Shown: positions 2,696-60,478 of the stretch, one piece after another
How positions within the stretch are numbered: the first letter of the stretch is position 1
Layout: every line of letters starts with the position of its first letter
Assembly: GCA_963712115.1 (NCBI GenBank)
Contig: CAVQGX010000026.1
Location: forward strand, 32,001 to 96,000
DNA length: 64,000 nt
Direction: 5' to 3'
Source of the DNA: an uncultured delta proteobacterium
Lineage (GTDB): Bacteria > Desulfobacterota > Syntrophobacteria > BM002
Notes under the pieces: generated by a model
The model's input: the letters and a program-made list of their open reading frames with translations, nothing else
Database searches by the model: none
What the model was told of the DNA's origin: nothing
Position numbers and translations under genes: made by a program

Positions 2696-2773
2696 GATGT
2701 GGGATTTGAGATGTGCGATGTGAGATAAATAACTCGATTCCGCCCACATCTCATATCTCAGATCTCACATCCC
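2696..2773. repeat. Inverted GATGTGA/TCACATC heptamer array
   Basis: GATGTGG-GATTTGA-GATGTGC-GATGTGA facing CACATCT-CATATCT-CAGATCT-CACATCC; overlaps the hisS stop. Confidence 0.8.
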
Positions 2774-4030
2774 TAACTTGAATCTTTGCAGTAATTTCTC
2801 AACTATTTCTTTTAAAGGAATCTCCTCCTGGGATGAAGCTTCCATGTTGCGCAGCACCGCAGCACCTTTCGTCAGTTCATCATCGCCGAGAATAAGTACA
2901 TGGGTTGCTTCAAGCTTGTCAGCTCTTCGCATTTGGGCCTTAAGACTCTTAGACTCGTAGTCCATCTCCACAGAAAGGCCACTGAGTCTGAGTTCCTGGA
3001 CAAGGGGAAATCCTTTCTTCTTGGCTTCTTCGCCCAAGCAAGCTACAAATAAACGGTTCGAGTCCGGTGCTGCCCCAGCTTTGTCATCTAAAAGCAAAAT
3101 CAGTCGCTCCATGCCGATGGCAAAACCAGTGCCGGACAAGTCGGGCCCCCCCAATGCCTTCATCAGGCCATCGTAACGTCCTCCCCCTCCGACTGCGTCC
3201 TGGGCCCCCAGGTGTGGGGTAATGGCTTCAAAGGTAGTTCTGGTGTAATAGTCCAGACCTCGCACCATGAAAGGATCAATGGTGTAGGCAACGGCGAGGC
3301 TGTCCAGGTGCTCCTTGACACTGTGAAAGTTTTTTTCACATTCATGGCAGAGATGATCCAGAAGCACTGGAGCCTTTTCCACCAACTTACCACAAGAAAC
3401 CACCTTGCAGTCGAAGATCCGCAGGGGATTGATCAGTCTGCGTCGTTGGCAGTCTGAGCAGAGCTTGTCGCTCACCCCTTCCAAGTAGTCAGCCAGGGAC
3501 TGTCGGAAGGGCAGTCTACAATCAGGACACCCCATGGAATTAATGTGCAGGCTAATGTCGGGTATTGTTAACTCCTCCAAAAATACGAGGAGCATGTAGA
3601 TGACCTCAGCGTCAACCATGGGGTCATCCATGGCAAAAACTTCCACGTTGATCTGGTGGAACTGTCGGTACCTCCCTTTTTGTGGCCGCTCATGGCGGAA
3701 CATGGGCCCCATGGTGTAAAATTTGCGCATGGCTGGCTGTAAATCTAATTTATGCTGAATGAAAGCTCGGACCACCGAGGCTGTAGCCTCGGGCCTCAGG
3801 GTGAGGAGTTGGCCGTTACGGTCGGGGAATGTGTACATTTCCTTTTCGACAATATCAGTGGTCTCCCCGATGCTTCGGGCAAAGAGTTCGGTTTTCTCAA
3901 GAATGGGTATTCTTATCTCCTGAAAACCAAAGTTAGAGAAGACCCTCCTGGCAACTGACTCCACCAGCTGCCACTTGCCGACTACATCGGGAAGAATGTC
4001 ATTTATTCCCTTTATTGCCTTGATTGCCAC
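2765..4030 (-). CDS. hisS: Histidine--tRNA ligase
   Basis: LRPEATA, FRHERPQKGRYRQFHQ, VRGLDYY and GGGRYDGL motifs. Likely GTG start at 4030. Confidence 0.97.
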   Translation of the reverse strand: MAIKAIKGINDILPDVVGKWQLVESVARRVFSNFGFQEIRIPILEKTELFARSIGETTDIVEKEMYTFPDRNGQLLTLRPEATASVVRAFIQHKLDLQPAMRKFYTMGPMFRHERPQKGRYRQFHQINVEVFAMDDPMVDAEVIYMLLVFLEELTIPDISLHINSMGCPDCRLPFRQSLADYLEGVSDKLCSDCQRRRLINPLRIFDCKVVSCGKLVEKAPVLLDHLCHECEKNFHSVKEHLDSLAVAYTIDPFMVRGLDYYTRTTFEAITPHLGAQDAVGGGGRYDGLMKALGGPDLSGTGFAIGMERLILLLDDKAGAAPDSNRLFVACLGEEAKKKGFPLVQELRLSGLSVEMDYESKSLKAQMRRADKLEATHVLILGDDELTKGAAVLRNMEASSQEEIPLKEIVEKLLQRFKLGM

Positions 4031-4116
4031 GACTACTCCACCGTCAAAGAGTAAACAAAATTTGATACTTAATCGGCCGGGTAAAGTCAAGGAAAAATCC
4101 AAATAGCAATGACTAA

Positions 4117-4254
4117 GGTTTCAGTGTTCAGTGTTCCCCGCTGTCGCTTCGCTTCAGACGGGATCTTCGACAGATTTCAGCTTCTATGTTTCTTTTTTCT
4201 GAAACCTGACACCTGAAACCTGATCCGCCTCCGGCGGAACACCTAAAACCCTGA
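4117..4254. repeat. Inverted GTGTTCA/CTGAMAC heptamer array with inserted mini-hairpins
   Basis: GTTTCAG-TGTTCAG-TGTTC facing CTGAAAC-CTGACAC-CTGAAAC-CTGA. Hairpin TCCGCCTCCGGCGGA interrupts one unit. Confidence 0.75.
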
Positions 4255-4384
4255 GATTAGCATTGCCAAAAGGACCCTATTGAGATAAGCTTTAATTACA
4301 ATCCTCAGTAATTCATTCCTGCCAGGAGCTGGATCCTGCCGGTATTAATATCTATTTAAAGCCTTTTAATTGGGGAGTAAAACC

Positions 4385-4882
4385 ATGGTACCATCTTTTG
4401 ACTCTGACTCCGATGAAAGAGAGAAACCGAGCTGGCGTGAAATTGACCGGAGAAGAGACCGAAGTCGCCACGCAAGCCGTGATGACCGCAGCACAAAGGA
4501 GAAGTCCCTCCGTTCCACCTGGGCGAAGGAACAATACTTGAAGGAAGTGGACAAATTCTTCACCGGGAAAAAAGGGGGCAAAGAGCACAAGACCGCTTTG
4601 AATGCAATCCACCGCAACTATGGAACCAAAAAGTTTGCCAGTTCGGTCAAGAAGTATCTCCAGAAATATGGAATCCCCGACGACTGGAGCACCTTAATGC
4701 TTCTGCTGGATTACAAGGATGACGAAGTGCTGGTGCAGGTCATAGAAGTGATGAAAGCTCTAGCGCCGGAACGATCCGCCATGGAAAGACATGGTTTCAA
4801 GGACAAGCTGGAAATCCTTTCTTTTACTGCTTCGAAATCGCAGATCATCTCTTTGGTCGAAAGTGTTATGAAGGAATTGTAG
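4385..4882 (+). CDS. Hypothetical protein, likely co-transcribed with polA
   Basis: 166-codon ORF with GGAG RBS, ending 6 nt before the polA start. Confidence 0.8.
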   Translation: MVPSFDSDSDEREKPSWREIDRRRDRSRHASRDDRSTKEKSLRSTWAKEQYLKEVDKFFTGKKGGKEHKTALNAIHRNYGTKKFASSVKKYLQKYGIPDDWSTLMLLLDYKDDEVLVQVIEVMKALAPERSAMERHGFKDKLEILSFTASKSQIISLVESVMKEL

Positions 4883-4888
4883 AAAACC

Positions 4889-7582: not shown

Positions 7583-7583
7583 A

Positions 7584-7826
7584 ATGCCAGAGGCGCAATG
7601 CGCCTCTGGCATAAATCCGAAATCCCAATTTCTAAATCCCAAACAAATTCGAATTACCAAAATACAAAATTAAAAACGGGAAAAATCAATGGCCAGATTC
7701 TCAGCATAGTCGTTTGCCTGCAGAATTAGGGTTGCGCGACCTTTTGAGCATTGAATATTTGAAACTGGGGCCCCACCCAAAGGGTGGGGAGTCCGGAGGA
7801 CAATTTGGAATTTGTTTCGGATTTAG
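7584..7826. repeat. AAATCCN/GGATTT-type inverted array with perfect hairpins
   Basis: Perfect hairpin ATGCCAGAGGCGC-AAT-GCGCCTCTGGCAT, then AAATCCG/AAATCCC units, hairpin CCCCACCC-AAA-GGGTGGGG, and mirror arm GGAATTTGTTTCGGATTT. Confidence 0.65.
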
Positions 7827-7853
7827 CTGAATAGAGAATGGCCCTGGGAAACA

Positions 7854-7882
7854 TTGACAATTGGGGCATGGGACGATAAACT
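7854..7882 (+). promoter_or_regulatory. sigma70 promoter of the putative ncRNA
   Basis: TTGACA(7854)-N17-TAAACT(7877). Confidence 0.8.
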
Positions 7883-7889
7883 AAAAAAT

Positions 7890-8221: not shown

Positions 8222-8226
8222 GAGAG

Positions 8227-10353: not shown

Positions 10354-10546
10354 ACTCTAGGTTTTACTGAGCACATGGGAGACTCGTGGGGCGTCACTTG
10401 ATACTACCTATAGGGCTGAATGGCTCGGATTCTTTAGATACAATCTGTCCAACATATTCCTGATAGCCTGGATAACTTGCAACGAAGGCTGGATAGAAAT
10501 ACGGGGCGCTGACCGGAAGCGGAGTTCCGGGAAGCGCCCTTTTTAC

Positions 10547-10806
10547 ATTTTAGATTTGAGATCGCGGATTGTAGATTTGCGAAAGCATAGAGCATAGAGC
10601 ATAGGGCATGGGGCATAGGGTCAAAATTTGGAAATTCGAATTTCGAATTTCCAAATTAAAAATCCAAAATTCCAAGTCCTCGGTCGTCTGTCCTTTGACC
10701 TCCGACTTCCGACCTCTGACTTCTCAGCGTCTTTGTGCCTTGTGTCTGGTGCTTAGTGCCTAGTCCTTTCTGTGCAATCTGCAATCTACAGTCTACAATC
10801 TGCAAT
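10547..10806. repeat. Composite array of several heptamer families
   Basis: GATTNYR, GCATAGR, AAATTCN, GACYTCY, GTGCCTW and GCAATCT blocks in series. 10678-10740 resembles the reverse complement of 30331-30395. Confidence 0.8.
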
Positions 10807-14907: not shown

Positions 14908-15185
14908 TGTAAGTAGACTGTGCCTATACTAGACTGGCAGATATTTTTTGGATCTCTACTGGAGTTTTTGAATCTTTCGAAACATCAAATCCCGAAATCC
15001 CGAAATTCAATGACAAAAACAGGTCTGATTGAATTTTGGTTATTGTTATTTGCTTGGAATTTGTATATCTTTGCATTTTAGTCGCTACAGTACTCCATTA
15101 CTCTAATTCCTTGCTTGCGAGAATTGCTTGACAAAAGAACTCGATTAGTCTATTTTTATCTTTTGTCTTTCTGGAGGATTAACTC

Positions 15186-18202: not shown

Positions 18203-18249
18203 TGCCTTTGCCTAGCAGGCAGCAAGCAGCGTACAGCAGGCACCGGCAA

Positions 18250-18350
18250 GTCATTTGCTCCGCGTCATTTGGCTCCGCCGTCACTAGGCCTTACGGCCGT
18301 CATTAAGTGGTGACAACAAATGACCATGAGTCAAAGCGCAACAAAATGAC
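18250..18350. repeat. GTCAT/ATGAC element, copy B (degenerate)
   Basis: Colinear with copy D (49717 onward); contains hairpin GGCCTTACGGCC. Confidence 0.75.
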
Positions 18351-18431
18351 CTAGAATGGTCTGAGTCTTAGTAGTACCCAGTCCGTAGTGCCTAGTTCCT
18401 AGTGGTTAGTGTAAAAGGGGGGAGAGTCTCT

Positions 18432-19148: not shown

Positions 19149-19267
19149 AATTGAGGAATTAAGGAATTAGGGAATTGAGGAATTCGCAATCACAAAAAAC
19201 CAAGCAGATAGCAATCTCTTGGCCATTTAATTCCTCAATCCTTGAATCCCTAAATCCCTAAATTCCT
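19149..19267. repeat. Inverted AGGAATTN/AATYCCTN octamer array
   Basis: Four GGAATT octamers facing five complementary units. Confidence 0.8.
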
Positions 19268-21319: not shown

Positions 21320-23385
21320 TTAGAAAAAGAGTTCTTTCTTCTCCACCAGAGAGTCAAAGTGGGAAAATTGCATAGTGAAAGTGGCGCGCCCCTGACTGGC
21401 CGAGCGCAATGCAGTTGAGTAGCCAAACATCTGAGAAAGAGCCACGGTGGCGTGGATAATTTTCACAGAACGTCGGGAGTGGATTCCTTCAATCTTCCCC
21501 TTCCTTATGTTGAGGTCATTGATGACTTCGCCGGTGAATTCTTCAGGAACAATAATTTCAACCGACATGATGGGCTCGAGTAGCTGAGGTTGTGCCTTTC
21601 TGCAACCTTCCTGGAGGGCAGTTGATGCAGCCACCTTAAAGGCGAGTTCACTGGCGGTCTGTTCTTTGTAGATCCCGCCGATTACTGCCACTTCTACATC
21701 CACTACCGGATACCCCGCGATTACACCACTTTCAAATGATTCCACCACCCCTTCCTCCACAGCAGGGATTAAGGATTTCGGTAAGGAGCCATCCCTAACC
21801 AAGTCGCGGAAGAGGTTGCCCTTGCCCCTGGGCCTAGGCTCCAGATGCAGTTCAACCTGGGCATAGTGAGGGACCCCTGCAATCTCTCGGTCAAAACTTG
21901 ACTTCGACCTCAGCAGACCTTAGTAATAGTTTCACGATAGACTACCTGAGGCTTTCCCACATTAACCTGGATGGCATATTCTCTGAGCAGTCTATTAACC
22001 AGGATATCCAGGTGGAGTTCACCCATTCCTGAGATAATGGTCTGGCCGGTGTCTGGATCTTGGCGAAAGTGGAAAGTGGGGTCCTCTTCCGCCAGTTTCT
22101 CCAGGGACTGAATAGTCTTGTCCTCATCGGCGCGAGTACGAGGCTCCATGGCAATGGAAATTACCGGTTCATAGAACTCGATGTGTTCCAGCAAGATAGG
22201 TTTATTTGGCGCGCAAATGGTATCCCCAGTGGTGGTTGACTTGAGACCAACCATGGCTACGATTTCGCCAGCGCCAGCCTTGGCCCGTCTTTCCCGCTTG
22301 TTTGCATGCATCTGAAAAATCCGGGCGACCTTCTCTTTCTGCTTGCGGTTGACATTGTAGACTTCGGCTCCTGCAGAGACCGTACCTGAGTATACTCTTA
22401 CATAGGTGAGTTTCCGTCCCTGATCCATTTGAATTTTGAAGGCGAGCCCGGCAAAAGGTTCATTGTCACTGCTGGCGCGGGTTTCTTTTTCTCTGGTCTC
22501 AGGGTGCTGTCCCGACACAGCTTCAACATCCAAGGGGCTGGGAAGGAAATCAATAATGGCATCCAACAGCAGTTGGATTCCTTTGTTTTTGAGGGCACTA
22601 CCGCACAGGACTGGAACCATTTTCAGCTTTAGAGTGGCCTGACGAACTACCGGCAGGAGATCCTCCGGCTCAAGAACCTCATCGGCCAAGTATTTTTCCA
22701 TTATGGTATCATCAAGCTCTGCAAGGGATTCGAGGAGTTCTGTACGATTTGCTCTTGCCTGTTCCTCGTATTCGGGGGGAATTGCCGTGAATTCGTAGGC
22801 GAGGCCGAGGGTGGACTCATCCCAGAGCACTGCCTGCATCCTAAGCAAATCGATAACCCCGACGAAGTCTGCTTCTGATCCCATGGGTATCTGTAGAACA
22901 AGTGGTCGGGTACCGAGCTTGTCTCGCATCTGATCCACGGCGCCAGTGAAGTCTGCACCCAGTCGGTCCATTTTGTTTATGAAGGCGATCTTGGGAACCC
23001 GATATTTGTCAGCTTGGTGCCAAACTGTCTCAGACTGTGGTTCTACCCCTCCAACAGCACAAAAAACTCCAATGGCACCATCGAGAACTCGAAGAGATCG
23101 CTCCACCTCAATGGTGAAGTCCACGTGCCCAGGCGTGTCAATGAGGTGGAATTCGTAATCTCGCCACAAACAGGTAGTAACTGCTGAGGTAATAGTTATA
23201 CCCCGTTCTTGCTCCTGCTCCATCCAGTCCATGACCGCTTCGCCGTCATGGACTTCCCCCATTTTATGCGATTTGCCGGTGTAGTAGAGGATGCGCTCGG
23301 TGACTGTGGTCTTACCAGCATCTATGTGGGCTATGATGCCAATATTGCGTGTTTTTTGCAGTCGTTTGACTCCGGACATAACCAT
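21320..23385 (-). CDS. fusA: Elongation factor G (stand-alone paralogue), broken by two 1-nt insertions near 21890-21920
   Basis: [23 protein letters not shown] and GMGELHL; domains IV-V lie in the second ORF. Removing one G and one T restores [18 protein letters not shown]. Confidence 0.9.
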
Positions 23386-28466: not shown

Positions 28467-28579
28467 ACTAGATACTGGATACAAGGCAGCAACAAATCTC
28501 CCATACGTCTTGACCCAGGGAAAATCGCAAATGTATCATCTAGCATCCAGCATCCAGTATCAAGCATCGAGCATCCAGC
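28467..28579. repeat. GATACTR/YAGYATC heptamer array
   Basis: CTAGATA-CTGGATA facing TAGCATC-CAGCATC-CAGTATC-AAGCATC-GAGCATC; the same family occurs at 57618-57690. Confidence 0.7.
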
Positions 28580-28672: not shown

Positions 28673-28813
28673 TAACCGCAGAGATCACAAAAGGATAATT
28701 TGAGATTTTAGATTGTAAGATTGCAGATTGCGAAATTCTCTAGTTCCTACTTTTGTCAATCTGCAATCTTCAATCTACAATCTCAAATTATCCTTTTGCG
28801 ATCTCTGTGGTTA
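28673..28813. repeat. Near-perfect 141-nt palindrome with a GATTGCA heptamer core
   Basis: Arms of about 58 nt differ at about 4 positions. Confidence 0.9.
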
Positions 28814-30325: not shown

Positions 30326-30695
30326 ACACTAGGCACAAAGGCGGTGAGAAGTCAGAGGTCGGAAGTCGGAGGTCAGCAAGGACAGACGACAGAGGTCGGA
30401 GGTCACGTCTGATAATCTAAGATAAAGAGTCTACTAGCTAATAGTCAGTAGGAGTGGCATAGGGCATAGAGTAAATCCCCATGCCTAAAGCCCCTAACTC
30501 TAGGCGCTCTGCGCTCTACGCTTTGCGTCTGTAACAACGGACTACGGACCACGGACAACTGACAAAAAGCCAGATGCCCGCTGCCTGTTTAGCCGGTTTA
30601 GCCGTTGGCCATCAGCCCAGAAAAGAATTCCACCTTCCGCGTTCCGACTTCCGCCGTTAAATCCTCGTTTCGCCCGACCTCCCGTTTCGCCGGAG
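30326..30695. repeat. Composite heptamer/octamer array
   Basis: GTCRGAR, GCATAGR, GCTCTRC, ACNACGG, TTTAGCCG, TTCCGMN and GTTTCGCC blocks. Confidence 0.75.
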
Positions 30696-32967: not shown

Positions 32968-34792
32968 ATGTCCTGGTTTGCCCGAAAAATACGTTTGAAG
33001 ACTCGATTCATGGTCGCTATCGGCACAGTTCTTTTTGCGCTAATGGCGATTATTGTTTTGCTGGTGGGGAATCGGTCCACCCGGATCATTAAACAGGAGG
33101 TGGAGGCCCGCGGTCTTGCTGTGGCCCGCAGCATCGCTGCTGTCTCCACTAATGCTCTAGTAACATACAATTACATTACCTTGGAACAGAACGCCGAAAA
33201 GGCCGGCCAGGGCACTGATATTGTCTATGTCATTGTCCTCGATAAAGAGGAGAAAGTAGCTGCATTTAGCGGTCACAGCGGCTGGCAAGGGAATTATTTG
33301 GACGATCCGGTGAACAAAAAAGCTCTGGCTGCCAAGAGGCCGGTTATCCAGTCTGTTTTGTGGGAAGAAACGGGTGAGCGGGTACTGGATATAGGTGTGC
33401 CAGTTTTCATCTCTAGTTCTGACATGAAATGGGGCACCGTTCGAGTGGGACTTTCTCTTGAGCGCATGTATTGGCAAATTAGACGGACCCAATTGGTTCT
33501 GGTGGGAATTGGCACAGTGGCTCTAATATTAGGACTTGCCGGAGCCCATGTCATGGCCAGCCGTATCACCCAACCATTGGGCCAATTAGCCAACGCCACA
33601 ATCGCTGCCGCCGAAGGTGACCTAGATCAGCGGCTAGATATCCACACCAGAGATGAGGTAGAGGATCTTGCCAACAGCTTCAACACCATGATCAGTGAGA
33701 TTTTGGATCAGCGGGTGCAACTGGAGCAGCGTTTCAATGAAATCTTAGAACTCAAAGCCTATAACGATATAGTTTTGGCTTCCATGACCAACGGCTTGAT
33801 AACCCTGGATTTGGGTTCACGGATTGTTAGTGCCAATGGCGCAGCAGAATCCATACTGGGGCTGGAGGGCAGGCACTGGCAGGGGATAAGTTTCCGTGAC
33901 CTGTGGCCTAAAGACAACTCACTAGTTCGATTGCTGCAAAAATGTCTACAAAGTCAGACTCCTTGCCGTAACCAGGAAATCTCATTGGACACGGGCGAGG
34001 GAAAGCAGCGCACCCTCATGGTGAACACCTCTTTCCTAGAAGATGGAAGGGAGGAAACAATGGGGGTGTTAGTAGTGATAAACGACATTACAGAGGTAAA
34101 GGCCCTGGAGGCTCGAATGCGGCAGAGTGACCGACTGGCCGCTCTAGGTACACTTTCAGCCGGACTTGCCCACGAAATCAGAAACCCGCTCTCTGCCATC
34201 AAAACCTTTGTCCAGCTTTTGCCGAGAAAGATCTCAAATCCCGCCTTTTTTGATAAGTTTCAGACCACCGTACCCCGCGAGTTGAACCGGATCAACGATC
34301 TCATAGAGAGCCTACTGGAATTAGCACGACCACCCAAGCTCGAATTTAAGATGACCTCATTTAAGTGGTTGTCTCTCCCAGGTAGAAGATCTCTATCGAG
34401 ATAAGCTTGAGGCAGCCAACATCACCCTTGAAATTAGCCAAGAAGAATCTTTGCCGGAACTCTGGGCCGACAGGGAACACTTGGTACGGGCATTATCCAA
34501 TATCGTGGTAAACGGTCTAGAGGCCATGCCTGAGGGAGGCAACCTCACCGTCACCGCTGAAGAACAGGCAGGAGGGGTGGTACTTCAGTTCACCGACACC
34601 GGTGTAGGCATGGACGAGGCCACCAAAGATAAGATATTCAACCCTTTCTTCACCACCAAAGACACAGGCACAGGGCTTGGCCTGGCCATGACGCACAAGA
34701 TCATCCAGGAGCACGGCGGCGATATTGAGGTTGACAGTTTGGTTGGCAAGGGAACTACCTTTACCTTGAGATTTCCTGGAGTGCAAGGATGA
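32968..34792 (+). CDS. Sensor histidine kinase (TM-periplasmic-TM-HAMP-PAS-HisKA-HATPase), one frameshift near 34361
   Basis: AHEIRNPL; N, G1, F and G2 boxes in the downstream ORF. Deleting one T joins both as ...TSLSGCLSQVEDLYRDK... Confidence 0.92.
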
Positions 34793-35359: not shown

Positions 35360-35441
35360 CTATTTAAGATTGGAGATTTAAGATTGCAGATTGCAACTTA
35401 GCGATGATATCTCTTGTTTTCTCGTTCTTGAGGAAAAATCT

Positions 35442-36310: not shown

Positions 36311-36462
36311 GGATGTGAGATGTGAGATCTGAGATGTGAGAATCAAATTCAGGAATTTAGGGATTGAGGAATTCAGGGATTTTTCTAGACCAGGCTCAAT
36401 TCCTTAATCCCTTAATTCGCAATTCCTGAATGTCTACATCACATATCGCACATCCCACATCT
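36311..36462. repeat. Nested palindrome: GATGTGA arms outside, GGAATT octamer arms inside
   Basis: Block order A-B-spacer-B'-A'. Confidence 0.85.
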
Positions 36463-41007: not shown

Positions 41008-41108
41008 ATAGCGCAGAGCGTCTGGTAAACAGTAAACGGTAAACCGATTATGCGCTGACTCCGCAACCCTTCACCGTTTACCATTTACTCTCTTTTCCGC
41101 TATGCGTT
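41008..41108. repeat. Nested short array: CATAGCG outside, GTAAACR/YTTAC inside
   Basis: catagcg...GTAAACA-GTAAACG-GTAAACC...ttcaccg-tttacca-tttac...cgctatg. Confidence 0.65.
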
Positions 41109-43872: not shown

Positions 43873-43969
43873 GTTTGTCCTCCTCAAAAAATGAATGTAT
43901 ACCCGAGAACTTTACAGGAAGCAAGGGGAAAATGGAAATCAGCAGTCAGGCAGCAGCAGACAGCAGGCA

Positions 43970-44222
43970 GTCATGAGGTCATTACACTCTGCGCTATCGC
44001 GCTTCGCTGTCATCAGGGCTGGGCCCGTCATTAGGCCTAACGGCCGTCATTAGGTTGTTTCAACGCCACAATGACATTTAACTATGAATGACAGCGTAGC
44101 GAAACTGGGAACCCGCTTGCGGGACTGAGCGGAGCGCAGCGAGCGCGAATAATTGACCTAATGACCATAAATGACGCCGCAGGCATAATGACGGCGAAGC
44201 CATATGACGCGTAGTAAATGAC
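43970..44222. repeat. GTCAT/ATGAC element, copy C
   Basis: Contains a 114-nt block near-identical to copy A, in inverted orientation. Confidence 0.85.
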
Positions 44223-46839: not shown

Positions 46840-47319
46840 TTGAATTCCAATAATAACAACAGCTCGATCACCGTTAGAAAAAATGGCAATGGAATAGTGG
46901 CGGAAATAACCGTCGCTGCCGGGACAGAACGTGTTTGGCGTATTCTGACTTCCTTTGATGAAATGGGCGCACATCTGAGCGGACTAAAAACAAGCAAAGT
47001 ATTAAGAAAAGAAGGCAATTACCTTCTGGTAGAACAAAGGGCGAAAGTGGGAATTTCGCTCTTATCATTTTCTTTTCGAGTGGTTATGGACGTTGTCGAA
47101 GATAGACCCTTCCTCTATTTCAGCCAGCGCCAGGGATCCTTTGCAACCTTCCGCGGCCATTGGAGGGTCGAACCTAAATCGGACGGCAAGGGAACCCGGA
47201 TTAGCTATTATCTCGAAGCTAGTCCGGCTCAGAGTCTGGGAGGTCGACAGTTTGGCAATCTGATGATCAAACAAAACTTGCAGCAATTAGCTTGCTGGAT
47301 CGATAATGGGGGAATTTAG
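46840..47319 (+). CDS. SRPBCC / polyketide-cyclase-like protein
   Basis: VWRILTSFD, GSFATFRGHW and GTRISY; start uncertain. Confidence 0.8.
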   Translation: MNSNNNNSSITVRKNGNGIVAEITVAAGTERVWRILTSFDEMGAHLSGLKTSKVLRKEGNYLLVEQRAKVGISLLSFSFRVVMDVVEDRPFLYFSQRQGSFATFRGHWRVEPKSDGKGTRISYYLEASPAQSLGGRQFGNLMIKQNLQQLACWIDNGGI

Positions 47320-47335
47320 GAATTGAGGAGTCCCT

Positions 47336-47581
47336 ATGCGCCGGCACCGTCATGACTTTGTGGAAAAATACCAGGGGATAATGGCCTTCGGCTATTCCCG
47401 CGAGGAAGATGAACGCTCCCTGATAGTTTTTCTGCAAAAGTTCTCCGACGATGACCTCATGGAACTGCTAAGGGGTCGAGTTAGCGACTCAGAGATTGAC
47501 AATCTGGTTGATCTCCTTACGGGCCTAATGAAAAAACATCTGAGCGAAGAAGAGTATCATCGTTATTTCCTCAAAGACTAA
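47336..47581 (+). CDS. Small hypothetical protein
   Basis: GAGGAG RBS; ends KKHLSEEEYHRYFLKD. Confidence 0.8.
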   Translation: MRRHRHDFVEKYQGIMAFGYSREEDERSLIVFLQKFSDDDLMELLRGRVSDSEIDNLVDLLTGLMKKHLSEEEYHRYFLKD

Positions 47582-47643
47582 AAGGCATAGGGCATGGGGC
47601 ATGGCGCAGAGGGCGAGACTTAAGGACTAAGGAGGAGCAACAG

Positions 47644-48746: not shown

Positions 48747-49036
48747 CAGCAGGCAGCGGACAGCTCGCAGCAGGCAGTCGTTTTAACTAGGCACTAGGAA
48801 CTAAGCACTAGACACTAGGCACAGCAGGGCGACGCGGTGAAACGGCGAGACGGAGACGCGGCGAAAATACCAGAAATTGAGAGGAATTCTGTTTTGATAG
48901 CTTTTCTCCTGAATTCTGGATTCTGGCTCCTTGCTCTATGCCCCATGCTCAATGCCCTATGCCTTTTTGAATCCGCAATCCGCAATCCGCAATCCCAAAT
49001 TGACAAAGTGCCTAGCTCTCTCCGCCTTGCCCCTCG
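48747..49036. repeat. Composite array of at least six repeat families
   Basis: CAGCRGR, ACTAGGC, GAVRCGGH, ATTCTGG, YATGCYC and AATCCGC blocks. Confidence 0.8.
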
Positions 49037-51933: not shown

Positions 51934-51937
51934 GTAT

Positions 51938-52496: not shown

Positions 52497-52630
52497 GAAC
52501 TTTGCCTCGCTTATGGAATATTGGAATATTGGAATGCTGGAAACTGGGAAACCGCTTACATTTTTCTCCCCATTATTCCATTATTCCAAAATTCCATCAT
52601 TCCAGTTGGCGAGCAAAGCTAAGCCAAGTT
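52497..52630. repeat. Inverted TGGAATAT/ATTATTCC octamer array
   Basis: Facing arms bounded by CTTTGCCTCGC / GCGAGCAAAG. Related tracts at 23461-23502, 54189-54219 and 60303-60407. Confidence 0.8.
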
Positions 52631-52653: not shown

Positions 52654-54117
52654 ATGATCCAGGATCTGAAAAGGTTAATAGAACAGGTCAGCAGAGATAA
52701 AGGCATTGAGCGGGACATACTTATCGCCACTCTGGAAGAGGCCATGCGGTCTGCTGCCAGGAAAAAATTCGGCCACGATCTCGATTTGGAAGTAGCCTAC
52801 AACGATGAATTCGGAGAGATTGAAGCGTTTCAATTTAAAGAGGTAGTGGCAAAGGTAAAGGACCCAGTGTTGGAGATATCGCTCGCTGAGGGCCGCAAAT
52901 TGGACCCCGAATGTGAGATCGGAGATAGCCTGGGTATAAAATTGGACACCGACACCTTTGGCCGCATTGCTGCCCAATCAGCCAAGCAAGTCATCATCCA
53001 GAAAATGAAAGACGCCGAACGAGAGATGATCTACGAAGATTACAAGGACCGGCGCGGCGAGATCATCAACGGTATAGTTCAACGCTTGGACAAAGGGGGA
53101 ATTACAGTAAACCTGGGTCGGGCCGAGGCCATTATCCCCTACCGGGAGCAGGTGCCCCGAGAGACTTACAGAAGGGGCGATCGCATTCGGGCTTTAGTAC
53201 TGGAGGTGAACCGGGAAGCGCGCGGGCCTCAGATCATCCTCAGTCGAACCCACCCGGAGTTTATCATCAAGCTCTTCACTCTCGAGGTGCCCGAGATAGC
53301 CGAAGGCATTGTCACCATTATGGGAGCAACTCGGGAACCAGGTAGCAGGGCTAAGATAGCTGTGACCTCTAAAGATCCGGACATTGACCCCGTAGGCGCC
53401 TGTGTGGGGATGAAAGGCTCCAGGGTGCAAAGTGTGGTCCAAGAGTTGCGAGGTGAAAAAATAGACATTATTGAATACAACCCGGATCCTGCCAAATTCG
53501 TATGCAATGGGTTAGCGCCCGCAGTTATTTCCAAGGTCGTCATAGACCAGGCTAATCGTCTTATGGAGGTTATAGTTCCCGATGATCAGCTTTCTCTTGC
53601 CATAGGTAAACGGGGCCAGAATGTGCGCTTAGCCTCAAAACTTACCGAGTGGCGCATAGACGTCAAGAGTGAGAGCAAGTATCAGAAATCACTCAAAGAG
53701 GGTTATGACTCACTCCTAGCACTGCCAGGGGTCGGGGATGCTACCGCCGACACTCTCTATGAGGCTGGGTTTGCCTCGGCAGAGGAGTTGGCTGGCGGCC
53801 TAGTGGAGGAACTGGTGGCGATTCCTGGTATAAGCCAGCAGAAAGCGGTGAAGTTTCTGGACGCAGCAAAAGAATATTTGGCCGAGCAAGAGGAAACTCA
53901 GGCCGAAAAGGAGAAGGCTCAGGCCGAGCAAGAGAAAGCTCAGGCCGAACAGGAGAAAGCTCAGGCCGAGCAAGAGAAAGCTCAGGCCGAACAGGAGAAG
54001 GCTCAGGCCGAGCAAGAAGAAGCTCAGGCCGAGCAAGAGGAAGCTCAGGCCGAGCAAGAGGAAGCTCAGGCCGATGAAAAGGAAAAACCTGAGGTTGAAG
54101 AGGGTGACAAAGCATAG
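52654..54117 (+). CDS. nusA: Transcription factor NusA
   Basis: FGRIAAQSAKQ, REPGSRAKIAV and AIGKRGQN; repetitive C-terminal tail. Confidence 0.98.
   Translation: MIQDLKRLIEQVSRDKGIERDILIATLEEAMRSAARKKFGHDLDLEVAYNDEFGEIEAFQFKEVVAKVKDPVLEISLAEGRKLDPECEIGDSLGIKLDTDTFGRIAAQSAKQVIIQKMKDAEREMIYEDYKDRRGEIINGIVQRLDKGGITVNLGRAEAIIPYREQVPRETYRRGDRIRALVLEVNREARGPQIILSRTHPEFIIKLFTLEVPEIAEGIVTIMGATREPGSRAKIAVTSKDPDIDPVGACVGMKGSRVQSVVQELRGEKIDIIEYNPDPAKFVCNGLAPAVISKVVIDQANRLMEVIVPDDQLSLAIGKRGQNVRLASKLTEWRIDVKSESKYQKSLKEGYDSLLALPGVGDATADTLYEAGFASAEELAGGLVEELVAIPGISQQKAVKFLDAAKEYLAEQEETQAEKEKAQAEQEKAQAEQEKAQAEQEKAQAEQEKAQAEQEEAQAEQEEAQAEQEEAQADEKEKPEVEEGDKA
53881..54069 (+). repeat. Coding 21-nt tandem repeat x9 (AEQE[K/E]AQ)
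   Basis: GCCGARCARGARRARGCTCAG-type units. Confidence 0.95.
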
Positions 54118-54242
54118 TTAGCCGTTTCAGCTTTATGCAAGCCAGCGTGGATCCATAATATTCAGGGCTCTGGTTTGTTGCGCCACTCATGGAATGGTGG
54201 AATATTGGAAAGTTGGGCTAGATAGGAAACGAAGTGGAGCTA

Positions 54243-57260: not shown

Positions 57261-57333
57261 GGAGGCTGGTGAAACTCTCTCCTCAGTGCTTGGTGTTGAG
57301 GAGGGGTACCGCTAAGGTCGAAAGGGCACGGCG

Positions 57334-57621
57334 ATGGTTGTTGGGGTTGCAAAGCTAAGCCTGCGTTTGCCAGGAAACAAATCGCTCAAGGGGAAACGTA
57401 AGGTGATTAAGAGCATTTCCGAAAGGTTGCGCCAGCGTTTCAATCTGGCAGTGGCCGAGACCGACGCCCAGGATTTATGGCAGACTGGAGAGTTAGGGCT
57501 TGTGGCAGTCGGCAACCAGACTGGATACATCGACTCAAAATTGGACAAAGCAATCAATTTTGTCGAAAATATGCAAGTGGCTGAAATTATTAGGATCCAA
57601 AGGGAATTAATTCACTTCTAG
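57334..57621 (+). CDS. DUF503 (YlxP) protein
   Basis: SLKGKR...RFNLAVAE; conserved position after infB. Confidence 0.92.
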   Translation: MVVGVAKLSLRLPGNKSLKGKRKVIKSISERLRQRFNLAVAETDAQDLWQTGELGLVAVGNQTGYIDSKLDKAINFVENMQVAEIIRIQRELIHF

Positions 57622-57696
57622 ATTCTGGATTCTGGATACTAGATACTTGATAGTGGATCGAGTCTAGAGAATTTAGCATCGAGCATCGAGAAACTC

Positions 57697-58047
57697 ATGG
57701 AAAACAAAAGAGCAGATCGGATTGCGGATCTCATTTTGAAAGAGCTCGCCGAGGTACTTTTGCGCAGGGTGAAAGACCCCCGTCTGGCTGACATCACCTT
57801 GACCAATGTTGAGGTGTCACCGGACCTTCGTCATGCAAAGGTATATTACAGTCTATTGGGGGATGATGAGAAAAGAAATAAAGCAACTGTGGGTCTAGAA
57901 AGTGCTAGAGGATTTGTCAAGCGTGAGTTGGGCAAGAGGTTGCAGCTGAGGCGAATGCCGGATATCTCATTTTACTTTGATGCTTCCCTGGAACACGGAT
58001 CCCAAATTGACCGGCTACTTGCTGAACTCAAGGAATCTGACCATTGA
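57697..58047 (+). CDS. rbfA: Ribosome-binding factor A
   Basis: KDPRL, SPDLRHAKVY and RRMP. Confidence 0.97.
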   Translation: MENKRADRIADLILKELAEVLLRRVKDPRLADITLTNVEVSPDLRHAKVYYSLLGDDEKRNKATVGLESARGFVKRELGKRLQLRRMPDISFYFDASLEHGSQIDRLLAELKESDH

Positions 58048-59012
58048 TAGAGGCTATCGCAAAAGAGCTTAGAGATAACAAACGTTTTCTCCTGACTACC
58101 CACGTAAATCCAGACGGAGACGCCATCGGTTCCCTTGGGGCTCTTGCCTTGGTACTCGAGGATCTGGGCAAAGAGGTGGTGGCCTACTGTCAGGATGAGA
58201 TACCTGGGTTTCTGCGATTTCTCCCCTATTCAGAGCGGATAGTAAGGGAGATCCCGGGTCCCAATGGGTTTGATGTGGCGGTGGTGCTGGATTGTGGAGA
58301 ACTTGACCGGATTGGCAACGCTGCCGAGGCTTTACAACAAGTCGAGAAAATCATCCATATCGACCACCATAGCTCCAGCGATGATTTCGGCCAGCTGAAT
58401 CTGGTCCGACCGGAGTGTAGTAGCACAGCCGAAATTCTCTACGAGATTTTTCAGGCTATCCCGGCGTCTTTGAGCTCGGAAGCAGCAGAGAACATCTACA
58501 CCGCTATCCTGACCGACACAGGCTCTTTTCGTTTTGCCAACACCACGGCAAGAGCCCTGGACATAGCGGCAGAAATGGTGGCCCTCGGAGTGGCGCCGGA
58601 CAAGATTGCCAGTGAGGTCTACGACAGCATGAGCCCCGAGCGCTTGCAATTGTTGGCTCTCAGCCTCAACACTCTAACTTTGTGGGCAAATGGCCGTCTG
58701 GCCACCATGCAGGTGAGTCGGCGGATGCTGGAAGAGACTAAGACTTCTGTCATGGACACCGACGGGTTCGTCAATTATCCGCGAGGGATAAACACCGCTG
58801 AGATGGCCATTTTTTTCAGAGAAATGGATTCGGGCAAGGTAAACGTCAGCTTGAGGTCTCGGGGTGGGCTGAATGTAGCCGAATTTGCTCGCAATTATGA
58901 CGGCGGTGGCCATCATAATGCGGCGGCATTTCGTGCCGAAGGATCTCTAACTGAAGTGGTTGAGGAAGTCTTAGCAGCAGCAGAGGAATTCATTGCTGGA
59001 GGATCGCAGTGA
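58044..59012 (+). CDS. nrnA: DHH/DHHA1 phosphoesterase NrnA
   Basis: HVNPDGDA, IDHH, TDTG and GGGH. Confidence 0.92.
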   Translation: MIEAIAKELRDNKRFLLTTHVNPDGDAIGSLGALALVLEDLGKEVVAYCQDEIPGFLRFLPYSERIVREIPGPNGFDVAVVLDCGELDRIGNAAEALQQVEKIIHIDHHSSSDDFGQLNLVRPECSSTAEILYEIFQAIPASLSSEAAENIYTAILTDTGSFRFANTTARALDIAAEMVALGVAPDKIASEVYDSMSPERLQLLALSLNTLTLWANGRLATMQVSRRMLEETKTSVMDTDGFVNYPRGINTAEMAIFFREMDSGKVNVSLRSRGGLNVAEFARNYDGGGHHNAAAFRAEGSLTEVVEEVLAAAEEFIAGGSQ

Positions 59013-59995
59013 ATTTGAGCCCAAGTTTGAAGCCAAAAGAACGAGCCTACGGTCAGGCCAAATTCACCGCTAATGGTGTTCTGGTTTTAGATAAACCAAC
59101 AGGCTTGACCTCCCATGATGTGGTCAAGGAGGTGAAAATAAGGCTGGGAGCGCTCAAGGTGGGACACAGTGGCACTTTGGATCCCTTTGCTACGGGGGTT
59201 CTCATTCTGCTGATTAACCGCGCCACAAAGCTCGCTCCCTTTCTCTTGGACCAGGACAAGAGATATCGTTTTACTGTTAAATTTGGAGTTGAGACTGATA
59301 CCCAGGACAGCACCGGCAGGGTGGTTGCTACCTATCCGTGTGGACCCTTACCTGAGGGCGAAATAAGAGAGGCCTGTGCTGCCTTTTTAGGCGACATAGA
59401 GCAGAGGGTCCCCCGCTTTTCAGCCGTTCGTGTAGGGGGACAAAGACTTTATCGGCTGGCGCGCCAAGGTGTCGATGTGACTCCACCCTGTCGCACAGTG
59501 AAGATCAAGAATTTTGACCTCTGCGACCTAAGCTGGCCAGAGGTTACATTTGAGGTCACCTGCTCTAAAGGAACTTACGTGAGAAGTCTTGGAGCAGATC
59601 TGGCCTGTCACTTGAACTGCAGTGGACATGTGAGCAAGTTACGACGGCTTGCCAGTGGGGGATTTGACCTGAGACAGGCCCTGACCCTGGAAAAATTTAA
59701 ACAAATTGTCGACAAGGGAGAACTTGGCCAGAACCTTATCTCGCCAGCACAGGCATTGTCTAACTATCCTGAACTAAGAGTTTCTTATGTGGCTGCCAAC
59801 ACTATCCGCCGGGGAGGTAGGCTAAACTCGAGAGAGTTTCTTGAATCTGAACTCAGCCTCGAAGGTCCCTATAGGGTTCTGGACCCCGGTAATAACCTGG
59901 TGGCGATGGTTGCCAAATCGGGTCAAAGACCCAGTGATGGGCACGAAGGGGAGATCACATTCAAGACTTTACGCGTTTTTGGGCCAATTTCTTAG
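59009..59995 (+). CDS. truB: tRNA pseudouridine(55) synthase
   Basis: GHSGTLDP and CSKGTYVRSL. Confidence 0.97.
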   Translation: MNLSPSLKPKERAYGQAKFTANGVLVLDKPTGLTSHDVVKEVKIRLGALKVGHSGTLDPFATGVLILLINRATKLAPFLLDQDKRYRFTVKFGVETDTQDSTGRVVATYPCGPLPEGEIREACAAFLGDIEQRVPRFSAVRVGGQRLYRLARQGVDVTPPCRTVKIKNFDLCDLSWPEVTFEVTCSKGTYVRSLGADLACHLNCSGHVSKLRRLASGGFDLRQALTLEKFKQIVDKGELGQNLISPAQALSNYPELRVSYVAANTIRRGGRLNSREFLESELSLEGPYRVLDPGNNLVAMVAKSGQRPSDGHEGEITFKTLRVFGPIS

Positions 59996-60176
59996 CCCGG
60001 ATATTTCATGAATTGTCTTCGGGAGACTGTGAAGATGGGCGTGCCACCGGGCAACCGCAGGGGGTTGGATCCGAGGCGTACTTGAATAGTACGTCGCAGG
60101 GTCGAACACCCGAGGACGCCCGGAAGGACGGCCATATCCACGGTCGCAGCAGGCGATTCATGAAATATCCGGGTTA
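59993..60176. mobile_element. MITE-like element, 184 nt
   Basis: 21-nt TIRs TAGCCCGGATATTTCATGAAT / ATTCATGAAATATCCGGGTTA (1 mismatch), TA at both ends, internal stems; supplies the truB stop. Confidence 0.8.
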
Positions 60177-60230
60177 TAGGGTAAATCTAAGGTTCTGGGA
60201 CGAAGAGCCTCTATTTTAGGCAAATTTATT

Positions 60231-60478
60231 AGGGTCCGGGAAACCTGGTCCTTCCGCCGGGTCAAAGTTAAATGGCTTTGCCAATAAAGATGGCGAGCTG
60301 TTCTGGAGTACTGGAGTACTGGAGTATTGGAAAAAGCTAAAACCCGAATGTCAAATTGAATAAGTTTTTATCATTACTCCATCGCTCCACCACTCCATTA
60401 CTCCAGCAGAATCCCGCATCGAGGAAAGACCAGCTCTGGGGTCCGCTCAAGGCCAGGTCCTCAGGGCCTGGATTCCTT
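60231..60478. repeat. Large imperfect palindrome with TGGAGTAC/TTACTCCA octamer core
   Basis: CTGGAGTA units facing TACTCCA units, inside outer arms ACCTGGTCCTT / AAGGCCAGGT. Confidence 0.7.

What the first reader, a model, noticed from the sequence alone, without database searches (positions are those of the whole stretch)
2696..60478. Window-wide system of nested, polarised 7-8-mer palindromic arrays in intergenic DNA
Seen: about 20 spacers carry 3-6 degenerate tandem copies of a 7- or 8-mer, usually facing their reverse complement across a short unique spacer. At least 10 families recur at distant sites: GATGTGA, GTGTTCA, GATTGCA, GCATAGR, GTCRGAR, ACTAGGC, GATACTR, GTAAACR, CAGCAGR, AGGAATTN, TGGARTAY and AAATCCN. 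In most families the G-rich arm is 5' and the C-rich arm 3'. Families nest inside each other (36311-36462, 41008-41108, 28673-28813) and lie within conserved operons without breaking genes. Inference: simple slippage would not give fixed period, inversion, polarity and nesting together. These look like emptied footprints of cassette-like elements that target each other's centres. Unverified recollection: similar arms flank four-helix-bundle (IVP/Avd-like) and GxxExxY genes in other genomes, so these are candidate cargo or mobiliser genes.
Basis: partly seen in the sequence, partly recalled or inferred. Interest (0 to 1): 0.8.

Follow-up and report, generated by a model that had tools for sequence, protein, structure and literature searches.

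The report
Heptamer-repeat hairpins left by gene cassettes
The short 7- and 8-base repeat runs that fill about 40% of the gaps between genes here are the arms, mostly now gene-less, of small hairpin-shaped cassettes that elsewhere in this and other genomes enclose a tiny four-helix-bundle or nuclease gene.

Summary
The window holds 44 arrays of 7- or 8-mers in 19 of 45 intergenic spacers. The genome holds 2,115 period-7 arrays against 79 in a simulated genome. In intergenic DNA there are 1,771 against 21 after dinucleotide shuffling.

G-rich arrays lie 5' and C-rich arrays 3' of the centre in 340 clusters, against 45 the other way.

"Usually paired" is overstated:
- 631 of 2,070 heptamer arrays have an inverted partner (null 192).
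- 669 of 1,351 clusters are single arrays.

The organism is not a cyanobacterium. Its nearest relatives are MAGs labelled Desulfobacterota or Deltaproteobacteria.

- All 11 full-length 23S_rRNA_IVP genes of this genome sit between inverted repeat arms (by eye).
- So do 23 of 34 such genes in ten other genomes.
- At least 3 of 5 GxxExxY nuclease genes here have such arms.
- At one orthologous site two relatives carry the gene, while this genome keeps only the two arms about 9 nt apart.

The window itself holds no cargo gene. How the cassettes move, why the arms are polarised and why an arm has about 4.4 units are unexplained.

This scan noted the cassette before on other DNA. My seven paper searches found no description of it.

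The parts
2695..2771 (.). hisS-aspS spacer: AGATGTG x4.6 facing CACATCT x3.9, G-rich arm 5'
   Evidence: each arm finds its partner
4120..4223 (.). GGTTTCA/GTGTTCA arm facing CTGAAAC/CTGACAC arm. Member of a dispersed family; its centre is interrupted by extra sequence.
   Evidence: Family shown (13 of 17 hits of the loop motif carry the same arms).
7613..7826 (.). AAATCCC x4.4 ... GGATTT. About 210-nt palindromic element of the AAATCC family, with reversed polarity (C-rich arm 5').
   Evidence: 13 copies with similar centres. An IVP-bearing relative lies at G000:C30:121300-122060.
10541..10806 (.). Composite: GATTKRA, GCATAGR, AAATTCG/AATTTCG centre, GACYTCY, TGCCTWG, TGCAATC. G-rich arrays come first, C-rich last; only the outer pair is complementary.
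14987..15006 (.). Solitary AAATCCCG x2.5 between RNase G and rplU
18214..18404 (.). CAGCAGR array, a 16/17-mer GTCATTTGGCTCCGCC repeat, and a TAGTGCC array
19149..19267 (.). AGGAATTN x4.5 facing AATCCCTA x4.9 (nadD-rsfS spacer)
28470..28579 (.). GATACTR units and CATCCAG x6.1
28673..28813 (.). Nested: an outer unique inverted repeat encloses GATTKYA units facing CAATCTN x3.9
30330..30655 (.). Composite: GARGTCR, GCATAGR, GCGCTCT (the arm type of the GxxExxY cassettes), ACAACGG, TTCCGCC
35362..35395 (.). GATTGCA x4.1 array
36311..36462 (.). Nested: GATGTGA x4.3 ... ACATCNC x3.7 around AGGAATTN/AGGGATT units facing AATCCCTT
41008..41108 (.). Nested: outer CATAGCGCAGAGCG ... CGCTATGCG around GTAAACR x2.9 facing GTTTACC units
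43939..43970 (.). CAGCAGR x4.6 array
47311..47608 (.). GGAATTGA x2.4 (47311-47329) and GGCATGG x3.6 (47584-47608), on either side of a short ORF-like stretch
48747..48995 (.). Composite: CAGCAGG, ACTAGGC, GAGACGC-like, then CTATGCC and AATCCGC. G-rich arrays come first and none are complementary. The 5' CAGCAGG arm is shared with the orthologous spacer of L002 and L003.
52514..52604 (.). rimP-nusA spacer: TGGAATAT x2.8 facing CCATTATT x4.4. The orthologous spacer is 60 nt in L004 and 97 nt in L005, without arrays.
54190..54216 (.). Solitary TGGAATGT x3.4 behind nusA
57616..57690 (.). DUF503-rbfA spacer: GATWCTR units and AGCATCG x2.3. One contig of run X15 has 171 other letters in place of 57620-57697.
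   Evidence: table 5
60303..60405 (.). Octamer hairpin: CTGGAGTA x3.6, a 40-nt loop AAAAGCTAAAACCC.., then CATYRCTC x4.2. One of 9 dispersed copies with the same order of unit variants. It lies inside the 252-bp element 60231-60482.
63096..63357 (.). pnp-M16 spacer filled with GTCATT/AATGAC 17-mer-type repeats. The orthologous spacer is 17 nt in L005 and holds GCATAGR or other hairpins in L001-L004.
   Evidence: the same repeat type forms the arms of the IVP cassette at G000:C3

Best explanation
The arrays are the arms of a family of small hairpin-shaped cassettes built like the ORF-bearing intervening sequences of 23S rRNA. An arm of about 4.4 tandem 7- or 8-mers (G-rich) is followed by a centre and then by a roughly complementary arm (C-rich).

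Complete members carry one small gene in the centre. It is either a four-helix-bundle protein (PF05635, IVP/S23p) or a PD-(D/E)XK GxxExxY protein (PF13366). Most copies in this genome, and all those in the window, are gene-less.

Shown:
- The gene-and-arms architecture, in this genome and in others.
- One orthologous site where the gene was lost and the arms stayed.
- Dispersed gene-less copies that share their loops and the order of their unit variants.
- Presence or absence between species and between strains.

Inferred:
- Gene-less hairpins arise by loss of the cargo and then spread, or persist, as non-autonomous copies.
- New elements tend to replace the centre of older ones, which gives the nesting.
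- Copy number then drifts by slippage in each arm independently.
- Inside operons the transcribed arms fold into long imperfect stems that are tolerated, and perhaps processed by RNase III as in rRNA IVS.

The enzyme that moves them is not identified. The GxxExxY nuclease is the better candidate.
For: Cargo with arms.
- All 11 full-length IVP genes of G000 have inverted periodic arms by eye. 4 of them pass a strict unit match.
- 23 of 34 IVP genes from G001-G010 pass the strict match.
- The G-then-C order holds for either gene strand: 15 G-then-C against 6 C-then-G.
- All 5 PF13366 genes have inverted flanks. 3 show clear CGCAGAG or CACGAAG units.

Emptied state.
- G012 and G006 have the IVP gene between TAGCCGGTT-type arms behind the same ABC-ATPase gene. 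G000:C46 has both arms about 9 nt apart and no gene.
- At a second site G000:C23 keeps only a remnant of the 3' arm.

Shared arm types.
- 453 of 2,492 arrays have a unit identical to one that flanks an IVP gene here.
- AAGCACG (24 arrays) and AGAGCGC (15 arrays) match the GxxExxY arms.

Dispersal.
- 13 of 17 hits of one loop motif, and 9 of 12 hits of another, carry the same arms with the same order of variants.

Turnover.
- The pnp-M16 spacer is 17 nt in L005, a GCATAGR hairpin in L004, and that hairpin plus a nested CAGCTGR hairpin in L001.
- Contigs of other samples skip or replace 57620-57697 and 60231-60482.

Folding and size.
- G..C clusters have a median z of -3.2 against -0.4 for array-free spacers.
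- Array length has a non-geometric mode at 30-32 nt (7-mers) and 34-37 nt (8-mers).

Distribution.
- PF13366 is present in the array-rich genomes G000, G012, G001 and G011, and absent from the array-poor G006 and G008.
Against: - No cargo gene lies in the window or in 80 related NusA loci.
- About 1,350 clusters stand against 14 IVP and 5 GxxExxY matches, and 272-284 unit types against a dozen cassette types.
- The IVP leader motif is never found orphaned in a gene-less hairpin: of 52 hits, only the 4 beside IVP genes count.
- Half of the clusters are single arrays without a partner. Those fold little better than controls: median z -0.77, with 27% below -2 against 10%.
- The two arms are only 81% complementary, their unit order is not mirrored and their copy numbers are uncorrelated (r = 0.07).
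- Array density does not follow IVP copy number among close relatives. G012 has 51.5 arrays per 100 kb and G006 has 7.5, and both have 4 IVP matches.
- No transposase, target-site duplication or excision product was identified.
- No reverse transcriptase was found (genome 94% complete).
- The emptied-site case is a single locus. The direction of change rests on NusA identity, not on a tree.
Confidence: 0.55

Rival explanations
1. In-situ microsatellites. The arrays arise at each site by polymerase slippage, as proposed for heptanucleotide repeats in prokaryotes and for cyanobacterial STRR. They are kept because transcribed inverted arrays make useful RNA stems (terminators, processing sites or mRNA stabilisers). 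On this reading the cargo genes simply insert into such stems.
For: - Copy numbers of the two arms are uncorrelated and unit order is not mirrored, as expected if each arm slips on its own.
- Half of the clusters are solitary arrays.
- Density is higher in convergent (2.55 per kb) and tandem (2.40) spacers than in divergent ones (1.41), which fits elements at 3' ends.
Against: - The order of unit variants and the loops are conserved between dispersed copies.
- The length distribution peaks at about 4.4 units instead of decaying.
- The polarity of 340 against 45 also holds for non-complementary neighbours.
- The same arms sit with and without the gene at one orthologous site.
- Contigs showed no 7-nt indel. 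Only 1 indel row was listed, but contigs drop rare variants.
Confidence: 0.2
2. Break-repair scars. The arrays are synthesised de novo at double-strand breaks, for example after cleavage of a hairpin tip, by reiterative addition of a G-rich word to both 3' ends before joining. That gives G-rich then C-rich on both strands. New arrays appear at the centre, and inner units of the older arms are lost by resection.
For: - Strand-symmetric polarity, including in non-complementary pairs (96 against 23).
- Arms of a pair are independent in unit order and copy number.
- Where centres differ between copies or species, inner arm units are missing too. Examples are L004 against L001, and the C52 and C3 copies of the octamer element.
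Against: - No polymerase or template for such addition was identified, and there is no reverse transcriptase.
- Dispersed copies share identical loops and variant order, which de novo synthesis would not give.
- Most pairs are complementary (204 of 230 adjacent opposite-skew complementary pairs run G then C), so both ends would have to use the same word.
Confidence: 0.1
3. A REP/REPIN-like system. The hairpins are non-autonomous elements moved in trans by a domesticated Y1 (RAYT or IS200/IS605-type) transposase.
For: - The hairpins are intergenic, hairpin-forming, dispersed and occur in families. REPINs are described as REP doublets forming hairpins (PMC3116915, passages).
- The genome has 4 PF01797 matches.
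Against: - None of the 4 Y1 genes is flanked by arrays. Two are typical IS200/IS605 copies with their own GC-rich hairpins, and they are identical to each other in their flanks.
- REPs are not built of tandem 7-mers.
- There are 272-284 unit types but only 4 Y1 genes.
Confidence: 0.03

Closest known systems
ORF-bearing intervening sequences (IVS) of 23S rRNA (Coxiella burnetii, Leptospira and others)
   Same: A long stem of inverted repeats encloses an S23p/IVP (PF05635) ORF. In Coxiella, tandem GACAGAT heptamers lie in the 5' arm just upstream of the ORF, and RNase III cuts at the first repeat. Repeat number varies between strains (PMC4990558, passages).
   Different: - Here the elements lie between protein genes and inside operons, not in rRNA helices.
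- Nearly all are gene-less and number about 1,350 clusters per genome.
- A second cargo type (GxxExxY nuclease) uses the same design.
- Excision by RNase III was not tested here.
[quoted passage not shown]
   Same: - Tandem degenerate heptamers.
- In P6b they base-pair into a hairpin whose length varies by copy number and by indels of extra elements that do not follow the repeat (PMC3488679, passages, citing Costa et al. 2002).
- STRR (Mazel et al. 1990) and the small dispersed repeats nested in heptamer arrays (Elhai et al. 2008) are recalled only. The Elhai paper was not held.
   Different: - The host is not a cyanobacterium. It has a sigma-54 activator, and its relatives are labelled Desulfobacterota, Deltaproteobacteria or Syntrophobacterales.
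- The same arrays occur in some Acidobacteriota MAGs.
- I saw no link to a cargo gene, no polarity rule and no length mode in the passages I read.
REP / REPIN elements with RAYT transposases
   Same: Abundant intergenic hairpin-forming repeats in families, thought to be non-autonomous mobile DNA tied to a single-copy gene flanked by the repeats (PMC3116915, passages).
   Different: The arms are tandem 7- or 8-mers. The flanked genes are PF05635 and PF13366, not Y1 transposases. The Y1 genes here are not flanked by arrays.
TAACTGA direct repeats of marine Beggiatoaceae, some cyanobacteria and Bacteroidetes
   Same: Intergenic tandem heptamers with a patchy, cross-phylum distribution (PMC4679880, abstract and passages).
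   Different: There it is one word, almost only as direct repeats (169 direct sets against 1 inverted set), mostly just upstream of start codons. Here there are hundreds of words, inverted arrangement is frequent, and the arrays lie anywhere in spacers.

Membership tests
IVS-type cassette (stem of inverted repeats around a PF05635 ORF) | Inverted-repeat arms able to form a long stem | tested here: met
   235 complementary array pairs with arms 81% complementary. G..C clusters have a median fold z of -3.2 against -0.4 for controls.
IVS-type cassette (stem of inverted repeats around a PF05635 ORF) | PF05635 ORF in the loop | tested here: inconclusive
   Met for the genome: 11 of 11 full-length IVP genes by eye, and 23 of 34 in other genomes. 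Not met for any element in the window. One orthologous site links a gene-less hairpin to a filled one.
IVS-type cassette (stem of inverted repeats around a PF05635 ORF) | Insertion in an rRNA helix and excision from the transcript by RNase III | not testable with these tools
   The window elements lie between protein genes. Only assembled contigs of RNA libraries were available, and these cannot show RNA ends.
STRR (cyanobacterial short tandemly repeated repetitive sequences) | Highly iterated tandem heptamers, mostly non-coding | tested here: met
   2,115 period-7 rows against 79 simulated, and 88% lie outside crude ORFs.
STRR (cyanobacterial short tandemly repeated repetitive sequences) | Host is a (heterocystous) cyanobacterium | tested here: not met
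   A sigma-54 activator and non-cyanobacterial gene order. The nearest NusA loci are Desulfobacterota- or Deltaproteobacteria-labelled MAGs.
REPIN-RAYT | A Y1 (RAYT) gene flanked by the repeats | tested here: not met
   4 PF01797 matches, none with arrays within 600 bp.
MITE (deletion derivative of an IS) | Terminal inverted repeats plus target-site duplication, and a parent element with a transposase | tested here: inconclusive
   Inverted arms and empty-site alleles exist. No transposase parent was found and no target duplication was determined. The parents that were found carry IVP or GxxExxY genes, not a known transposase.
Simple-sequence (slippage) repeats | Unit-number polymorphism and a decaying length distribution | tested here: not met
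   Length modes lie at 30-32 nt and 34-37 nt. No 7-nt indel appeared in contigs of 4 runs (table 4), but contigs hide rare variants.
CRISPR array | Direct repeats of 25-40 nt separated by unique spacers | tested here: not met
   The units are 7-8 nt and head to tail, without spacers.

The most novel reading that the evidence does not exclude
Heptamer and octamer arrays in bacteria from several phyla, possibly including the cyanobacterial STRR, are the products of one undescribed class of selfish hairpin cassette. Each arm is a counted array of about 4-5 protein-binding words. These are read on the single-stranded or RNA hairpin by the pentameric IVP ring and cut or copied with the help of the GxxExxY nuclease. 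On this reading the strict G-rich-5' polarity is a mechanistic footprint of how the arms are made or recognised. Cargo loss then seeds thousands of gene-less hairpins that reshape operon spacers.
Probability: 0.25. Interest if true: 0.85.

Novelty: new variant of a known kind. Interest (0 to 1): 0.68.

Why it matters
Tandem heptamer repeats have been known since 1990 (recalled) and rRNA intervening-sequence proteins for about 30 years. Neither has an accepted function or origin.

This genome ties them together at scale. It offers:
- a quantified polarity rule;
- a preferred arm size of about 4.4 units;
- dispersed families;
- turnover between species and between strains;
- an orthologous site with filled and emptied states.

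That makes several questions directly testable:
- Does IVP or the GxxExxY nuclease bind or cut these hairpins?
- Are the stems processed in mRNA?
- Do the elements move?

There is also a practical point. About 40% of the spacers in core operons (rimP-nusA-infB-rbfA, hisS-aspS, obg-proB-nadD) carry such elements, so they may affect operon expression and confuse repeat and CRISPR finders.

Tried and rejected
- One hypervariable position per unit. The share of deviations in the most variable column was 0.472 against 0.435 for a uniform null, so I dropped the idea.
- Mirrored arms. Unit order is not mirrored: 0.811 observed against 0.821 after shuffling unit order.
- Genes enclosed by matching arms 180-2500 bp apart as cargo. 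There were 122 inverted against 149 direct matching pairs, and the ORFs I read were housekeeping genes (cysS-like, NuoF-like and others). Only the 0.4-0.5 kb intervals hold IVP genes.
- Hairpin-gene-hairpin units as IS elements. Rejected for the same reason.
- A strict pair-in-pair nesting count gave 1 case. It missed arrays that TRF reports at period 14 or 16, or below its score cut-off. I replaced it.
- Orphan IVP leader motif inside gene-less hairpins: none found.
- Reverse-transcriptase route: no PF00078 match.
- Rfam: only a tRNA at gathering score. Around 59950-60560 there were only chance-level hits.
- Filled states in the window's own orthologous spacers: no IVP by tblastn in L001-L080 or in the window.
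- IVP copy number as a predictor of array density. It looked good across 10 genomes chosen by one locus each (16, 15, 21, 4, 12 against 4, 3, 2, 4, 1). It failed between the close relatives G012 and G006.
- A loose motif search returned 319 mostly irrelevant hits. I used only a few copies read by eye.
- Papers not held: Elhai 2008 and Rouhiainen 1995.
- Parts of the stretch without contig cover are not used as evidence.

Full report
WHAT IS THERE

The window is G000:C26:32001-96000 of a 4.9-Mb, 49% G+C draft genome in 70 contigs. Pfam names almost every long ORF:
- aspS and hisS, and polA;
- a radical-SAM protein, RNase G, rplU, obg, proB, nadD and rsfS;
- serS, and a sigma-54 activator;
- an ABC transporter, dnaJ and groESL;
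- rimP, nusA, infB, rbfA, nrnA, truB, rpsO and pnp.

The organism is not a cyanobacterium. The five closest NusA loci (82-91% identity) are MAGs labelled Deltaproteobacteria, Syntrophobacterales or Desulfobacterota. The next best are only 47-49% identical.

After removing overlapping rows there are 44 arrays in 24 clusters. 19 of 45 crude intergenic spacers hold at least one array.

IS IT MORE THAN CHANCE

Yes.
- Genome-wide there are 2,115 period-7 rows against 79 in a 3rd-order Markov simulation of the genome, and 426 against 92 at period 8. Other periods are far less enriched.
- Within intergenic DNA alone there are 1,771 against 21 (period 7) and 328 against 16 (period 8) after dinucleotide-preserving shuffling.
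- 88% of the period-7 rows lie mostly outside crude ORFs, which cover 79% of the genome.
- Arrays occur in 29-34% of spacers of every type. They are denser in convergent (2.55 per kb) and tandem (2.40) spacers than in divergent ones (1.41).

PAIRING, POLARITY AND NESTING

Pairing is real but not the rule.
- 631 of 2,070 heptamer arrays have at least two reverse-complement units within 300 bp. The null, using the flanks of a random other array, is 192.
- For octamers the figures are 68 of 422 against a null of 4.
- In the window 13 of 44 arrays have a partner.
- 669 of 1,351 clusters are solitary arrays.

Polarity is the strongest regularity.
- Clusters that hold both G-rich and C-rich arrays run G then C 340 times, C then G 45 times, and are mixed 31 times.
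- Adjacent complementary arrays give 204 against 26.
- Adjacent non-complementary arrays still give 96 against 23.
- Because an inverted repeat reads the same on both strands, this rule is strand-symmetric.
- It also holds in the close relative G012 (16 against 3) and in loci of other phyla (14 against 3).

Nesting occurs at the three sites named but is a minority state. Of 235 pairs, 92 have centres of 40 nt or more. Of those, 28 hold another array and 22 hold an inverted repeat.

G..C clusters fold far better than shuffles. Their median z is -3.2 and 67% fall below -2. Array-free spacer segments have a median of -0.4 and 10% below -2. Solitary arrays are intermediate at -0.8 and 27%. These figures come from samples of about 70 each, with 15 mononucleotide shuffles per sequence.

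FINE STRUCTURE

- The two arms of a pair are 81% complementary. The order of their unit variants is not mirrored (0.811 against 0.821 after shuffling unit order). Their copy numbers are uncorrelated (r = 0.07).
- Array length is not geometric. There is a mode at 30-32 nt for 7-mers (501 of 2,070) and at 34-37 nt for 8-mers (78 of 422), which is about 4.4 units in both.
- The mode is seen in abundant and mid-sized families, and as a local mode in loci of other phyla (34 of 154). It is not seen in rare families.
- There are 272-284 unit types. A few dominate: AGAGGTC 117, ATTTCGG 102, ACTAGGC 94, GCATAGN about 190.

DISPERSED ELEMENTS

Several families are true repeated elements.
- 13 of 17 hits of the loop motif of the GGTTTCA family carry the same arms with the same order of variants.
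- 9 of 12 hits of the octamer family's loop motif do so, including the window copy at 60303-60405.
- An AAATCC family of about 170-210 nt has 13 copies with similar centres and reversed polarity. Its window copy is at 7613-7826.

TURNOVER

Synteny with L001-L005 is conserved, but the spacers differ.
- pnp-M16 is 17 nt in L005. It is a GCATAGR hairpin in L004. In L001 it is that hairpin with a CAGCTGR hairpin in its centre and most of the outer 3' arm gone. L002 and L003 hold other families, and the window holds 17-mer repeats.
- rimP-nusA is 60 nt in L004, 97 nt in L005 and 245 nt in the window, where it holds the octamer hairpin.

Contigs of four public runs (two DNA, two RNA libraries; estuary, marine-sediment and soil metagenomes) hold related strains.
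- One X15 contig has 171 other letters in place of 57620-57697.
- X5 and X15 contigs join 60230 to 60483, so they lack the 252-bp element that holds the octamer hairpin.
- No 7-nt indel was listed, but contigs drop rare variants.

CARGO GENES

The genome has 14 matches to PF05635 (23S_rRNA_IVP), 11 of them full length.
- By a strict unit match, 4 sit between matching inverted arrays.
- Reading the flanks, all 11 have inverted periodic arms. These include the 17-mer type and the AAATCC type.
- Of 34 IVP genes fetched from ten other genomes (Acidobacteriota and other MAGs, and the close relative G006), 23 pass the strict test. Most of the rest have arrays on both sides.
- Polarity is G then C for either gene strand: 10 and 5, against 2 and 4 the other way.

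The genome also has 5 PF13366 (PDDEXK_3) genes with the GxxExxY motif. All have inverted flanks, and 3 show clear CGCAGAG or CACGAAG units. The same words form gene-less arrays elsewhere in the genome (24 and 15 arrays) and at 30504-30531 in the window.

THE EMPTIED SITE

Behind the same ABC-ATPase gene, G012 and G006 carry an IVP gene between TAGCCGGTT-type and AACCGGCT-type arms. G000:C46 has both arms about 9 nt apart and no gene. The gene is present in both the nearer and the farther relative by NusA identity, so loss in G000 is the simplest reading. No tree was built.

At a second site G000:C23 keeps only a remnant of the 3' arm. At a third site the G000 cassette at C30:124358-124941 corresponds in G012 to 194 nt holding other arrays.

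WHAT DOES NOT FIT

- No cargo gene lies in the window or in the 80 NusA loci.
- No orphan IVP leader was found.
- IVP number does not predict array density between G012 (51.5 arrays per 100 kb) and G006 (7.5), which have 4 matches each.
- PF13366 follows density better. It is present in G000, G012 (one partial match), G001 and G011, and absent from G006 and G008. That is only five genomes with measured density.
- No reverse transcriptase was found.
- The four Y1 transposase genes have no arrays beside them.

COMPARISON WITH WHAT IS KNOWN

- The architecture matches ORF-bearing 23S rRNA intervening sequences. In Coxiella, tandem GACAGAT heptamers lie upstream of the S23p ORF, RNase III cuts at the first repeat, and repeat number varies between strains (PMC4990558, passages).
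- It also matches the degenerate heptanucleotide hairpin of the Nostoc tRNA-Leu intron (PMC3488679, passages).
- IVP genes have been noticed wedged between cas genes (PMC3936711, passage).
- STRR (Mazel 1990) and Elhai 2008 are recalled only.
- Seven searches found no paper that links heptamer arrays to IVP or GxxExxY cassettes, or that reports the polarity or length rules. Subscription journals are largely outside the library.
- Earlier agents of this scan reported the same cassettes in other genomes: 30 notes for IVP and 62 for GxxExxY. I tested the architecture independently here.

VERDICT

The mechanism of movement, the polarity and the counted arm size remain open.

Noticed in passing
window 59994-60176: A 184-nt near-perfect hairpin element between truB and rpsO. 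Contig depth there is 2,972 (X1) and 28,607 (X5), against roughly 20-100 beside it, so it is highly repeated in these communities. Contigs of the DNA runs X1 (1) and X5 (2) join 59992 to 60177, which is an empty-site allele. It looks like a separate small mobile element.
   Followed up: partly
window 60231-60482: A 252-bp element with conserved ends (AAATGGCTTTGCC..TAAAGAT on the left, GGAAAGACC..CCTGGATTCYTTAC on the right). Its middle is the octamer hairpin. Other genomic copies carry other hairpin families in the same position, so the hairpins behave as exchangeable modules. At least 14 partial copies exist in the genome, and the element is absent in contigs of X5 and X15.
   Followed up: partly
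window 771-820, 18250-18283, 44165-44210, 63096-63357: 16- or 17-mer repeats of the type AATGACGSCGAAGSC (GTCATT.. on the other strand). The same repeat type forms both arms of the broken IVP cassette at G000:C3:31620-32190, so cassette arms are not restricted to 7- or 8-mers.
   Followed up: partly
window 21320-23385 and 32968-34792: An EF-G-like gene and a sensor histidine kinase are each split into two ORFs, by an in-frame stop or a frameshift. They could be pseudogenes or assembly errors. No array lies at the breaks.
   Followed up: no
window 53880-54094: A 21-nt in-frame tandem repeat (9.3 copies, also read as 42 and 63 nt) in the C-terminal part of nusA. It is a coding repeat and unrelated to the intergenic arrays.
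   Followed up: no
G000:C64:8012-8374 and G000:C48:16547-16906: Two IS200/IS605-type Y1 transposase copies with identical flanks, inserted directly behind TTTAAC. The C64 copy sits at the right end of a copy of the 252-bp element.
   Followed up: no
L030, L059, L069, L078, L056 (Acidobacteriota/Terriglobia MAG loci): These unrelated genomes carry the same kind of polarised, sometimes nested heptamer arrays at 5-8 per 10 kb. Some words are shared with this genome, namely CAGGTGT/CCTGACA, GACAACG and CGAAATT. Whether shared words mean transfer or convergence was not examined.
   Followed up: partly
G003 locus L093 (IVP gene at about 601-915): This IVP gene lies between two complete hairpins of one word family (TGGTAGG x9.4 and CCACCTA x4.4 on the left; GGTAGGT x4.3 and ACCTACC x9.4 on the right). 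That is an outer G-then-C pair around an inner C-then-G pair.
   Followed up: no
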